DNA from: Phoronis australis
Lineage: Eukaryota; Animalia; Phoronida
Length of the DNA: 64,000 nt
Assembly (NCBI GenBank): GCA_002633005.1
Contig: NMRA01000175.1
Span: forward strand, 23,432 to 87,431
Direction of reading: 5' to 3'
Shown here in pieces: positions 20,901-47,900 of the stretch (position 1 is its first letter; each line of letters opens with the position of its first letter). The notes beneath the pieces were generated by a model. It searched no databases. It had not been told where the DNA came from and was given only the letters and a program-made list of their open reading frames with translations. Both the position numbers and the translations under genes were made by a program.

Positions 20901-23900
20901 GGCATCTCGTGCCTGTTGTCAAAGACTGAAAAGGGCTGTGGATCGTGAAAAAGAAATGTGTTTGTAAGATAAGAATTGTGTGGCATCTCCTGTGTAGTAA
21001 ATGAGGGAAGAACACTGTCAACAGTGTGTAACATGTGAATTCATTTTTTGATGTCAGCACATTTCTAATGTTCATAAGAACAATTGTGATTTCTATTAGC
21101 TAGTTACCTTTGACCTTTTGCAGGTGAGACATAAGTGCACCAGACAGGTGTATGCGATGAAGCTGCTGAGTAAATTTGAAATGGTAGGTGCAACGTAATT
21201 AGTCTACGTATTGAAGTATTGCTGCTTAGCCAGTGTTCAGGTGTGTCTGTAACAATGAATAATCTGGTATGGTGTAATGCTGAGTGAGGTCAGCGAATTC
21301 ATAATTTGTTTGTGTACTGTATTTTCCTGGTTTGATGCCCACATGCCGCTCGATATGCAGTTGCACTCACTGATATTGAGTTTCTAAATTAAAATACCTT
21401 GGGATTTAAATCGGGCCAGTGCAGCATGCAGTAAAGTTAAACTGGACCGAGCGATTTCACCAAAGTCCGTACTGGATGAAACATACTGCAGAACTTAATT
21501 ATGTGACTTGTGCAAGTCCATCTTATCTGAGTATTACCGTCTCCCTAAAACCTCTTTGAGGTGGTGATGTGGTAACGGAATTTCTAGACTCTGTTGGTCA
21601 ATTTACACCAACCTCTAGCCTATTTACGCTGGTATGAAATTTCGGAGGATCATTTTCCGGCCATCTTCGGGTTCAAATCACTCTTATGTGCCATGGAAAA
21701 AGTATGATTCCAAAAAGTGTTCATCATACCATACACCCGTGCTTGTTCTTCTGGGAATGCTGTTACACCTGAAGATGACCGTAGAAATGTCCGACTGAAA
21801 CGCTGTGCCAATGTTAATAGGCTAGAGGTTGCTGCAAGTATAGACGAATCTATTTTAGAAGTGATATTACGGAGTATTATTGATGAATCTTTCAGGTGTA
21901 CGTGGCATGTGGGTTGCATTATTGATTCTAAAATTATAGTTCTAAATCTTGAATTTTAAACATTCTTATGAACGTATTAGAATTGAAGTATGTGCCGCAG
22001 TGTAAATTTCAATTTTTTCAAAATATTTAAATTAGCTTAGGTTTTTCAATTTGCTTGGTGAAGTGTTTTTGTTAGCTTTTTATGTCTTGGAAAATCGGAT
22101 GTCTCGATCTGTGCATCAAAAGTTTAAAAGGATTACTTTGATGCCTATGGTGAATTACGTTTGCTTTCAAAACATTAGCAAAATGTTACTTCAAAGCACT
22201 TGTACTTAACTGTATGTTGTTTCTGAAAACTAAAGCCTACAGTTTTATCAAGAAAGTAGTCAGATTTGTTTTAGGATTTGAACTAGCACTATAGTTTTTT
22301 TAATTGGTGTTGTGTTTTTAGATTTAATTACGTGTTTGGTGTTTCGTCTGTACCATGTTTGGTCAGAAACAGTTATGAATTCTCGGTAATCATTGGCTAT
22401 TTTCTTGAGAAGCACCCACGCACTGTGTCGTGCCTTCTTTACCATGTCTTGACTTTTGATTTAATGTTTTACTCTGCTTAGATCAGGAGATCCAACTCAG
22501 TGTTTTGACTTTTGTTTTCCTCTATTCAGATCAAGAGATCAGACTCAGCGTTTTTCTTCCAAGAACGGGAAATCATGGCCTATGCCAACAGCGAGTGGAT
22601 CGTGGCTGTGAGTAGACAAGTTCACTGAACCATGAATGATCCAGTTAGTTATCAAAGTCAGCCATGCTTAATTTTGTTTTCTCTAGCAACTATAAATACT
22701 CCCATTTACCATAAAACACTTGCTGAAATGTGAATCTGTGGAGAGACTAAAGTGTTAGTGAGTGGAAGGTTACCATATGACTTTCTTCAGTTAGGTCATA
22801 AACTCTGTTTGTTATTTCAAGATCCTGTTATCTCTGTTTATTCACAAGGCAGTGTAAAATAGTGGCACTTGTTGACCATATGTTCTAAATACTGTTCTAA
22901 TAGCTGAATTCACTGACCTACTTAGTCCTGTTCACAACACCCAATTGTCCCAAGTCATTTTCAGTTATATCAGCGCGATACATTATGCAACCGTGGATTT
23001 TTCTTCGAAAGCGTATTTTTAGAGATGGAAATGAAAGGCAGTTTGAGTTCATCATTCCTCAGACATTATACAAGTTATTGAAAACTTTGTCACTTTGATT
23101 TTATTCTCAAAAGCATTAAATGAATGGTAAGATCTGTAGTCTCTGTGTTACGCAGTTATATGAATAAAGTATCATCGCATGTTCATGAAAGCTAGTTGCG
23201 TTGGTGAAACCGTTACTAGTAACGCAGCCACCCACCTGTTTTAACCGACATGATATCTTGGTACTTGATCCAGCGCTGCTCGAGTGGTCCAGCGTTGAAG
23301 TTAGGTTTAGAAACATTTACACAGGACGGGGAAATGTAGCGAAATGAGAGAAAGTTGTCAGGAAGCTAGAGTTGCTGGTGTCACATACTTTTGTTCAAAT
23401 TCGAACTTTGTTCAGGGCTTATTAGCTATGCAATCTTAAGATAACTGTTATTTTGCTTAGAGACAGTTGTCAAAATCGGCATTTCTTGTTTTCCTGGTTA
23501 ACTACATTGCTTCTAAAGTTGCTACTGCTCCATACAAACCATGTATTTAAGAAAGTAGAATTTCTCAATGTTGCGTTTTGTTGAGGAATTTGAATTTATA
23601 AATATTTTCCACCATACCATGTGTTGAGTAGGAAAATAACCATATGTTGAGATCACCACTCAAAACATGGCCCTGTTTTCATTGTTCATATTTGCATTCC
23701 TAGGCCACAAGTTGCTCAGTTATTTATTTTGTCTCAATGAGTGTCTTGACATCCTGCTTCATGTTTCAAGGTCTTGGGTCAGCACGGTTGTTTAAATCCT
23801 TTCCAGAGCCTTCCCAAACCCCATAACGCATTTGTTATTTGTTAGGTGTTTGTTGTTTGCTAAACGAGCTTAAATACATCTCACTACTACTTCAGCCACA

Positions 23901-44900: not shown

Positions 44901-47900
44901 GGCAGGACTTGGATCTTAGTGAGGCTGGTGAGTGTCGGTCAACAGTAGGCGGGACTTGGTTAGTGATGAGGAAGGTATGTGGTGCTGTGGCAATGAGTAG
45001 TGGGTGGGACTTGGATGCTGTGAGGTGGGTGATTGCTGGAATGTCAATCAACTGTGGACAGGATTTGCATGTTAGTGAGTCGGGTCACTGCCTATTGTTT
45101 GTAGGCGGAACTTAGTGAATGGTGGCGGTGGTATGTGATACATTGTCAATCAGCACTGGACAATGGGTAGGTCCTAGTGCGGTGAGAGACTAATAAGGAG
45201 AGTGCCTGTCATTTGTGGGCAAAACTTGGATGGCAGTGGAGCATTGATATTTATAGTTATATTGAACACTGCTTTGGTGGGTCAAAAACCTCCAACTTAA
45301 AAGTAAGATCAAGTAAGAATGAAGCAGTTTATTAAGCCTACAAAGAACTGTGAGCTCCTTTGCATTAAGTCAAAAAATAACCATAAGCTCCTTTGCATTA
45401 TGCCAAAAAATAATCGTGAGCTCTTTTGCATTAAGGCAAAAAATAACCGTGAGCTCCTTTGCGATTGCAGTAGCCATAGTAAACAAGAAGTGTTGCCTTA
45501 TTTCACCACTTGGACTTTTTGTGGCTGTCTCAAAATCAAATCAAAAATTTTGACTCTTGCTGTTCTGCTAAACAGGATGTCCCAAGGTAATAGTCATATT
45601 GCCAAAGCAGTGCTCAGTATAGCTCGAAGAATTGTTTACAGACTCTCATCGCCATGAACGGCCATGACAATTTCTGTTTTTTACACTTACATTCGTAATT
45701 ACCACATTCTGGCAGTTTTCAAACACCATCTCCGTGTTGTAGACGTGCGACTAGAAGGCTGGCTTGCCATCCCCAACAGACAGAATATTAAGAAGTATGG
45801 CTGGAAGCAGCAATACGTCGTAGTCAGTCTACGCAAGATGATCTTCTACACATCTGAGGTGGATAGGCAGGATCCACTCAGGGTCATAGATATTGAGTGA
45901 GTAGGAGCGGAATTTTGTACACCACCAGCTTGTTTGGTGTGAATTCATGTCGGGGTGATGATGAATGATGATCAGTCGCTGATGTCAGTCTGATCATCAT
46001 TCATGGTATCTTTCGTGGAAAACCTCTTAATCATTTAACTTATTGCTCAGTGATAGGAAATCATAAATTATCTGGATTGATGACAAACCATACATAAAGA
46101 GTTATATCAACTGTTAATGTGAATTTCTATCCATCATTTATTGTATACTGTCCAGTCATATGAATAGCTAAGAAATTTTAGATGAGAAATTATGACGAAC
46201 CTAAATTCCTTGCACACAGGGCTTAGCTCTAGACATGTTCCCGTTGTGTGGTTCAGTAGATTCTAAAAGTAATCTGACACAAAATACCGTTTCCTGTGTC
46301 GAGAACTCCTTTCGCTTGCAGCGAAAATGATTGAAATTGACTGACAAGTGGAAATTTTTAATTATGGAATAGTTGCTATGACAATCGATTCCACTTAATA
46401 TGCTCGTCTGCTTACTTTTGCATGCACTGTTTCTTGCTGATGAAACTCAATTATGATATTGGGAAAACTAGAAAAGGATATTTTTAGTGTAATTCCTTCC
46501 TTATTTCACACAAAAATAATTGTGTTTTTTCATTTTTCATAGGCTGATTACCCTGCTTGCTTCAAATAATGAAAACTTTGCATTGTGTTGTTTTATGATA
46601 TCTGCTACTTAAGGTAACAATAGACTTAAGTTGTGTTATATGAATCATTTTTTTCATGATACATGGGCCAAAAATTTGTATTTTTCATATTCATTGCTAG
46701 AGTGTTAGGTGAAGGATTATTTTACGTTTGATCATTGGTTTCTCAAGTTAGTCAAAGTTAAGAAAGTTTACTCATGCAAGTAATACGTAGATTGCTGCAA
46801 AATTTCTCAGCGATTCTCATAATCCCTCATTCGTTTTTATCAAATTTATGCACGCTTTGATAGACGTTCAGTAGTTTTCAACATGAACTGAACATCATCA
46901 AAATTCAACAAAGTTTGGAAGCACAGAACTGTTACCTATCTCGTTTACATGCCCTGTCTAGAAATCATGACAACTTTTTGTGCAAGTCCTTTACCAAAAT
47001 AACCAATCAGTGACTAGGCGCTATAATGTCACAATGAGCTCTGTCTAAATTTCAACAAAAACACTTTTATTGCAGTTAAGGTTTCACTGAACTGCCAATG
47101 ATTGTGGCAAAACGTTAGTCATAGTTTGGCAGATATTGACAGACCTCTGTCAATATCTGTCCAATTTGTTTTGAAAATTAGTTGCATGGTCAACAAATTA
47201 CAGGTATAGTCTCAAGTGTCCATGTTATGTTATAATTTAATCTGTATTGCAGCAAACTGTTCCATGTTCGGCCTGTTACTCAGACAGATGTGGTGAGGGC
47301 CGAAAGTAAAGACATACCTCGTATCTTCCAGGTATGACACAGTCGTTATTTTGAACTAGGTTGCCACTGTAACAAACATTTTAAGTGTGGTCTGCACGCC
47401 GCCTGTTGGCCATATCATGTGACCTAATGAACATAAGTCCAAAAACATTTCTGCTCCCGACCAGAACTCGAACCCAGGACCTTCTGCTATGTATGCATAT
47501 CTATATTTCCATACCGGTTCAAGATTCACAGACACACATGCACCCACCCACCCACCCACCCACACACTCACACACACACTCACACACACACACTTGCAAA
47601 TGCAACTCAATCCTGACTTTAAGATTTTTTATTTTTAATACACATGGGCTGCTCCGCATAGCACTGTCATATTTATTGCTTTCTAAACTCTAGCACCATT
47701 GGCAATAACCACAACGGGCATGGTATGCTGTATAGGAGCAGTTTACGGGCTATAGTGCTCAACACTACAATTATTCCTTGTCAGATTTGAAACATTCTAT
47801 CCAAATTCCCTAATGGTCTGTTGTGAAAGTTATGTCTCTGTAACGACTCACTGTTGTTCTTTAGTAGGTTTCATACACTGTTTTCAAACCTCTACACTTT

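What the first reader, a model, noticed from the sequence alone, without database searches (positions are those of the whole stretch)
22449..45240. Gene-wide 'splice-junction echo' arrays: introns carry decaying tandem copies of the neighbouring exon end and its splice site
Seen: at least seven ROCK exons are flanked by 1-7 diverged copies of their own boundary (units ~50-150 nt). Acceptor plus exon-start copies lie upstream of exons 22530, 24058, 25569 and 41793. Exon-end plus donor copies lie downstream of exons ending 42983, 43683 and 44927. Each array is specific to its own exon, and in the cleanest arrays (25569, 42983) the nearest copy is the most similar. Inference: a recurrent process duplicates exon-intron junctions outward into the intron, so introns grow from their edges and accumulate decoy splice sites. 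Such concentration on junctions, independently at many exons, is not expected from position-blind slippage and might be splicing- or transcription-coupled. I cannot confirm from here whether this is already described.
Basis: partly seen in the sequence, partly recalled or inferred. Interest (0 to 1): 0.85.

Follow-up and report, generated by a model that had tools for sequence, protein, structure and literature searches.

The report
Old 'mirage' repeats at ROCK junctions
In the Rho-kinase gene of a worm- or shellfish-type invertebrate, six of 63 exon ends have decayed head-to-tail copies in the neighbouring intron; these are likely harmless leftovers of small DNA duplications, a kind of repeat already described in lancelets as "mirages".

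Summary
In a complete lophotrochozoan ROCK gene, 6 of 63 splice sites carry exon-specific, direct tandem copies of their own junction in the adjacent intron. The same test finds 0 of 82 in other animals' ROCK loci. The seventh site named (41793) is only marginal. Copies are 51-82% identical to the junction, decay neutrally, and their splice signals are not specially conserved. RNA over the donor arrays shows only the true junctions. Identity falls weakly with distance (p=0.01). The structure is published: amphioxus "mirages" (PMC3087553, PMC3902484), human F7 IVS7 and CBS 844ins68. This scan also noted it before on other DNA. The claim that position-blind duplication cannot explain it is not established. 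A plain null gives 15% junction-anchored arrays against 43-46% seen, but adding fast mid-intron turnover gives 30-38%, and the window was pre-selected. Unexplained: the six arrays form three consecutive acceptors and three consecutive donors (post hoc p about 1e-4), and the donor arrays follow G-rich intron starts.

The parts
8918..50175 (+). Host gene: Rho-associated kinase (ROCK), 33 annotated exon stretches (two of them doubled by an assembly overlap); first coding exon not found in the window
   Evidence: tblastn; all AG/GT boundaries and an open 1352-aa frame; six junctions confirmed by RNA
22454..22505 (+). One copy of acceptor + start of exon 22530 (80%, offset 48 nt, AG kept)
23652..23940 (+). 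Two copies of acceptor + start of exon 24058 (23884-23940 strong, 23652-23716 weaker)
25085..25515 (+). Three clear and 1-2 faint copies of acceptor + start of exon 25569, spacing about 100-110 nt
41657..41709 (+). Marginal single copy of acceptor + start of exon 41793 (67%, AG kept)
   Evidence: p=0.011
43049..43231 (+). Two copies of end of exon 42983 + donor + G-run; donors after 43087 and 43199 keep GT
43716..44248 (+). Five clear and two faint copies of end of exon 43683 + donor + G-run; consensus-strength donors after 43768, 43833, 44080
44933..45242 (+). Six copies (about 45-55 nt, alternating long and short units) of end of exon 44927 + donor
37661..37771 (+). Marginal copy of end of exon 37598 + donor (70%, gapped)
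   Evidence: p=0.009

Best explanation
These are old mirage-type repeats: direct copies of a splice junction lying in the adjacent intron, likely made by ordinary short tandem DNA duplications and likely kept only because they do no harm. Steps: (1, shown) the copied unit is genomic, exon end plus intron start or intron end plus exon start, not spliced sequence. (2, shown for the donor arrays at the RNA depth seen) the exon-proximal site stays in use, so the extra copy is intron. (3, inferred) duplications inside an exon are purged, while junction-spanning ones survive. (4, inferred) once a pair exists, misalignment with the exon copy or between copies adds further units, pushing older ones outward. 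(5, shown) the copies decay without coding or splice-site constraint. (6, inferred) the exon copy is frozen by selection and junction-proximal DNA is shielded from long deletions, so these arrays stay recognisable longer than mid-intron ones.
For: For most copies the flank matches the intron (6-16 of 20) better than the neighbouring exon (3-9 of 20); the far copies tie. Differences show no codon-position bias (0.30/0.25/0.29, p=0.59), transitions 111 vs transversions 88, CpG sites changed 30 of 51 vs 169 of 661. Echo donor 9-mers 61% vs copied exon core 67%; GT kept 8 of 14, AG 3 of 8. Only canonical joints in RNA runs X6 and X7, 7-32 reads each. The genome makes such duplications away from exons: 7-8 intron-only clusters in the gene and a 46-nt tandem duplication present in one of two near-identical assembly copies at 56602. 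Position-blind simulation with fast intron turnover gives junction share 0.30-0.38. The three acceptor-echo introns sit at the same positions in other animals, without echoes there. Precedent: PMC3087553, PMC3902484, PMC1557585, PMC2630376.
Against: The plain null gives junction share 0.14-0.15 and 6 or more echoes in 0 of 89, 1 of 85 and 0 of 85 runs; even the favourable settings give 0 of 67, 1 of 59, 1 of 65 and 2 of 66. The six arrays fall as three consecutive acceptors and three consecutive donors (p 1e-4 to 2e-4 post hoc; p=0.29 with the looser 16-site set), which independent events do not predict. All three donor arrays follow G-rich intron starts. No junction copy is younger than about 82% identity. 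Simulation parameters are my guesses.
Confidence: 0.62

Rival explanations
1. The mutation itself is biased to junctions or to local patches: transcription- or splicing-coupled breaks, R-loops or G-quadruplexes at G-rich intron starts, or a polar recombination hotspot, repeatedly emit junction copies outward.
For: Junction share 0.43-0.46 vs 0.15 in the plain null (binomial p 0.008-0.012). Outward gradient p=0.010. Same-type clustering. Six of 31 intron starts have G 0.34-0.55; three carry strong echoes, one a marginal echo, and two carry other repeat arrays. G4Hunter 2.32, 1.56 and 0.92 at the echo donors. G4-driven minisatellite instability is known in yeast (PMC2673046, search listing only).
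Against: The window was chosen for this feature. Survivorship settings close most of the gap. Acceptor arrays have no G4 potential. G-richness is partly a product of the arrays. Donor 49670 has G4Hunter 1.44 and no echo. 0 of 82 junctions in other animals' ROCK loci, so it is not a general property of splicing. Copies at 43683 share more changes than independent emission predicts (147 vs 88).
Confidence: 0.25
2. The echo donors are kept as splicing decoys that tune intron retention or NMD of ROCK.
For: Three echo donors in intron 43684-44710 score as high as the true donor (10.2-12.3 vs 10.9). That intron alone has intronic RNA depth of about 1.0 and 1.7 (roughly 7 and 11 reads) against 2 reads or fewer in five neighbouring introns. 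Decoy-exon regulation of retention is described in human cells (PMC6097662, listing only).
Against: Echo splice sites are no more conserved than the rest of the copy. No echo joint reaches the 3-read listing threshold. The echo donors at 42983 and 43683 all lead to stops. Read numbers are tiny and it is the longest of those introns.
Confidence: 0.08
3. The arrays are scars of intron gain by tandem duplication, or of lost duplicated exons.
For: The model is proposed for mirages (PMC3087553) and shown experimentally for ATP2A1 (PMC3265369, abstract).
Against: The three acceptor-echo introns are shared with other animals. Copies fill at most half the intron, include the intron's own splice end, and show no codon bias. 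Intron age was not checked for the three donor-echo introns.
Confidence: 0.03
4. Assembly stutter or chance similarity.
For: The window holds two assembly overlaps, and purine-rich coiled-coil exons resemble G-rich intron.
Against: Copies are 18-49% diverged. Contigs of DNA run X1 span 41157-44214 and 44601-45950 with 4 and 5 other letters (possibly the source sample). Local-composition shuffles and other-site controls are far exceeded.
Confidence: 0.02

Closest known systems
Amphioxus 'mirages' (Adh3, globins BflGb6/BflGb9, troponin C, PGBD5; PMC3087553 and PMC3902484, passages read)
   Same: [quoted passage not shown]
   Different: Host here is a lophotrochozoan, not a cephalochordate. Copies are 51-82% identical rather than 81-100%, closer to the exon than to each other, with no length variation seen. 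Six arrays lie in one gene.
Human F7 intron 7 37-bp VNTR (PMC1557585, abstract read)
   Same: First unit spans the exon-intron boundary; downstream pseudo-donors stay silent and the most upstream donor is used.
   Different: F7 units are identical at the splice site and polymorphic in number; here they are old and degenerate.
Human CBS 844ins68 (PMC2630376, passages read)
   Same: Single duplication of an intron/exon junction; the distal site is used so the extra copy is spliced out; the young form of the acceptor echoes.
   Different: A single recent polymorphic copy, not a decayed array.
Intron gain by tandem genomic duplication (ATP2A1; PMC3265369, abstract read)
   Same: Local duplication involving splice-like signals.
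   Different: That creates a new intron from exon sequence; here pre-existing introns gain copies of their own ends.

Membership tests
Mirage (junction-spanning tandem repeat) | Direct tandem repeats whose unit spans an exon-intron boundary, with the functional junction as the end unit | tested here: met
Mirage (junction-spanning tandem repeat) | Both acceptor-side and donor-side boundaries can be duplicated; unit 10-160 bp | tested here: met
   3 acceptor and 3 donor arrays, units about 45-150 nt
Mirage (junction-spanning tandem repeat) | Many but not all units keep AG/GT | tested here: met
   GT 8 of 14, AG 3 of 8
Mirage (junction-spanning tandem repeat) | Regular splicing is undisturbed | tested here: inconclusive
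   Only canonical joints for 41793, 42983, 43683, 44927 at 7-32 reads per run; no RNA seen for 22530, 24058, 25569
Mirage (junction-spanning tandem repeat) | Length instability or polymorphism of the array (reported for Adh3 and BflGb6) | tested here: inconclusive
   One DNA run, possibly the source sample, shows no unit gain or loss
Young, concerted mirage arrays (BflGb6 type; descriptive, not the definition) | 81-100% identity with concerted evolution among units | tested here: not met
   51-82% to the junction, and copies mostly less alike to each other
Intron gain by tandem genomic duplication | Intron is new (absent from relatives) and derives wholly from duplicated exon sequence | tested here: not met
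   Acceptor-echo introns shared with L002, L015, L017, L018, L019; arrays fill 4-52% of the intron
Splicing decoys regulating intron retention | Conserved cryptic splice sites needed for retention | tested here: inconclusive
   No excess conservation within copies; small intronic RNA signal in one intron; no relatives' orthologous introns available

The most novel reading that the evidence does not exclude
This lineage has a junction-biased, regionally polar duplication process: kilobase patches in which consecutive exons all shed copies from the same side (acceptors in the kinase region, G-rich donors in the coiled-coil region), so that a sizeable part of intron DNA is exon-derived and grows outward from the junction.
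Probability: 0.2. Interest if true: 0.7.

Novelty: new member of a known kind. Interest (0 to 1): 0.3.

Why it matters
As a known kind, it extends mirages to a lophotrochozoan and shows their aged form: up to half of an intron can be decayed exon-end copies, and consensus donors can sit downstream of the true one without visible use. If genome-wide data showed a real bias of new duplications to junctions, it would link splicing or transcription signals to local mutation and give a testable route for intron growth and new splice sites. The evidence here does not reach that.

Tried and rejected
No whole genome is held, so no genome-wide enrichment test. Tandem Repeats Finder misses the arrays as such. 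cDNA-templated origin rejected. Coding constraint on copies rejected. Selection on echo splice sites not supported. Donors 33371, 31593 and 32031 were examined as possible older echoes and are not significant. The raw sliding scan (182 of 3532 intron probes vs 19 of 207 junction probes) was not used as an enrichment test, because intron probes include the echo copies. wrongly merged the 45331 repeat into the 44927 array; one search corrects this. Of 80 loci, 18 were inspected and 8 with usable introns tested; the others were intronless, distant kinases, redundant or too short; their splice sites were placed by a heuristic and a few may be wrong. RNA run X8 had almost no coverage (34 reads). 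No run was on record as an indexed RNA holder. The original Adh3 mirage paper (PMC117041) is not held and is known to me only through PMC3087553. Searches for a genome-wide study of junction-enriched duplications found none in this library; subscription papers are not covered. Supplements of PMC3087553 (repeat alignments) were not read and may bear on how degenerate published mirages are. Earlier-findings look-ups returned nothing.

Full report
Host gene. The window holds a Rho-associated kinase gene on the + strand. tblastn with homologues and inspection gave 33 exon stretches from 8918 to 50175. Dropping one copy of two exons doubled by an assembly overlap, they join to an open 1352-aa frame with AG/GT at every boundary. 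The best full-length relatives are about 55% identical (Owenia, Lineus), and Lingula is the best hit for the 43466 exon. A quick tree places the protein among lophotrochozoans (SH-aLRT 93; protostomes 97; the careful search did not finish; no amphioxus sequence was in the set). No whole genome is held.

Observation. Of 63 splice sites, six have a copy of their own junction in the adjacent intron, far above local shuffles and above all other-site targets: acceptors 22530, 24058, 25569 and donors 42983, 43683, 44927. Acceptor 41793 is nominal only (p 0.011). Sixteen of 63 reach p<0.05. The same test on 82 junctions in 8 other animals' ROCK loci gave 0 strong and 4 at p<0.05 (Fisher p=0.006 for 6 of 63 vs 0 of 82). 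Arrays are exon-specific, direct, with 1-7 copies of about 45-150 nt, and fill 4-52% of their introns.

Anatomy and decay. The units continue into the intron's own end rather than into the neighbouring exon, so the template was genomic, not spliced mRNA. Differences from the exon show no codon-position bias and strong CpG loss. Echo splice sites are no better kept than the rest of the copy, although three echo donors at 43683 and one at 42983 are of consensus strength. The exon junction is the hub: copies are mostly closer to it than to each other (partly an ascertainment effect). At 43683 copies share more changes than independent origin predicts (147 vs 88), and at 44927 long and short units alternate; both suggest some recopying within the array. 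Identity falls with distance in the pooled test (32 vs 10 pairs, p=0.010), but the nearest copy is best in only 3 of 5 arrays. The three acceptor-echo introns lie at positions shared with other animals, so the echoes were added to old introns.

RNA. About 18-19% of three RNA runs of the same species label were laid on 41150-45950. X6 and X7 show six joints, all canonical, with 7-32 reads each; no echo-site joint reached the 3-read threshold; X8 was nearly empty. This is a weak bound at 43683 (13 and 7 canonical reads), and NMD would hide products. Intron 43684-44710 has roughly 7 and 11 intronic reads against 2 or fewer in five neighbours. I have no RNA evidence for the acceptor arrays at 22530, 24058 and 25569.

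Is the concentration at junctions beyond position-blind duplication? The gene has 6 junction-anchored and 7-8 intron-only clusters. I simulated position-blind tandem duplication on the real architecture, rejecting exon-internal events. The plain model gave a junction share of 0.14-0.15, and six or more echoes in 1 of 259 runs. With long deletions and unrelated insertions turning over mid-intron DNA, or duplication stopping in the recent past, the share rose to 0.17-0.38, with six or more in 4 of 257 runs. The gene is thus at the upper tail of all settings, but the parameters are guesses and the window was selected for this feature from a very large scan, so a p near 0.01 carries little weight. 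The genome does make such duplications elsewhere, for example a 46-nt unit in one of two near-identical assembly copies. One pattern is not explained: three consecutive acceptors and three consecutive donors (permutation p 1e-4 to 2e-4, statistic chosen after seeing the data; p=0.29 on the looser set), with donor arrays following G-rich intron starts.

Comparison. Earlier scan notes gave the name mirage, which I checked in print. [quoted passage not shown] PMC3902484 (passage) adds troponin C and imperfect repeats in PGBD5. Human F7 IVS7 (PMC1557585, abstract) and CBS 844ins68 (PMC2630376, passages) show how the exon-proximal site stays in use. The present arrays meet the structural definition and differ in host, age and number per gene. 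I found no genome-wide study of junction enrichment in the held library.

Verdict. A real, well-preserved set of aged mirages; most likely neutral survivors of ordinary duplication (0.62), with a junction- or patch-biased mutational process not excluded (0.25). New member of a known kind; interest 0.3.

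Noticed in passing
window 33716-34768 and 34771-35820: Near-identical pair (2.2% substitutions) either side of a single N, doubling two ROCK exons; likely an assembly overlap of two haplotypes, not an exon duplication.
   Followed up: partly
window 56384-58522 and 58524-60630: Second such pair (2.6% substitutions); one copy has a 46-nt tandem duplication at 56602 that the other lacks.
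   Followed up: partly
window 32059-32223: 20-nt G-rich minisatellite (8.2 copies, 90%) starting 27 nt after donor 32031; each unit holds a donor-like GGTGAG/GGTGAT but it does not match the exon end.
   Followed up: partly
window 33372-33870: G-rich, internally repetitive intron start after donor 33371; possibly an older echo array, not significant against the exon.
   Followed up: partly
window 28316-28340, 29010-29021, 31036-31074: Three small exons (25, 12, 39 nt) between kinase and coiled coil, inferred from splice signals and frame only; no RNA check.
   Followed up: no
window 43684-44710: Low intronic RNA depth in two runs while neighbouring introns are almost empty.
   Followed up: partly
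window 13528-14012 and 15803-16261; 45570-45624: Dispersed repeat pair (87%) in the long second intron, and a short high-copy element in intron 44928-45742 that attracts many reads and contigs.
   Followed up: no
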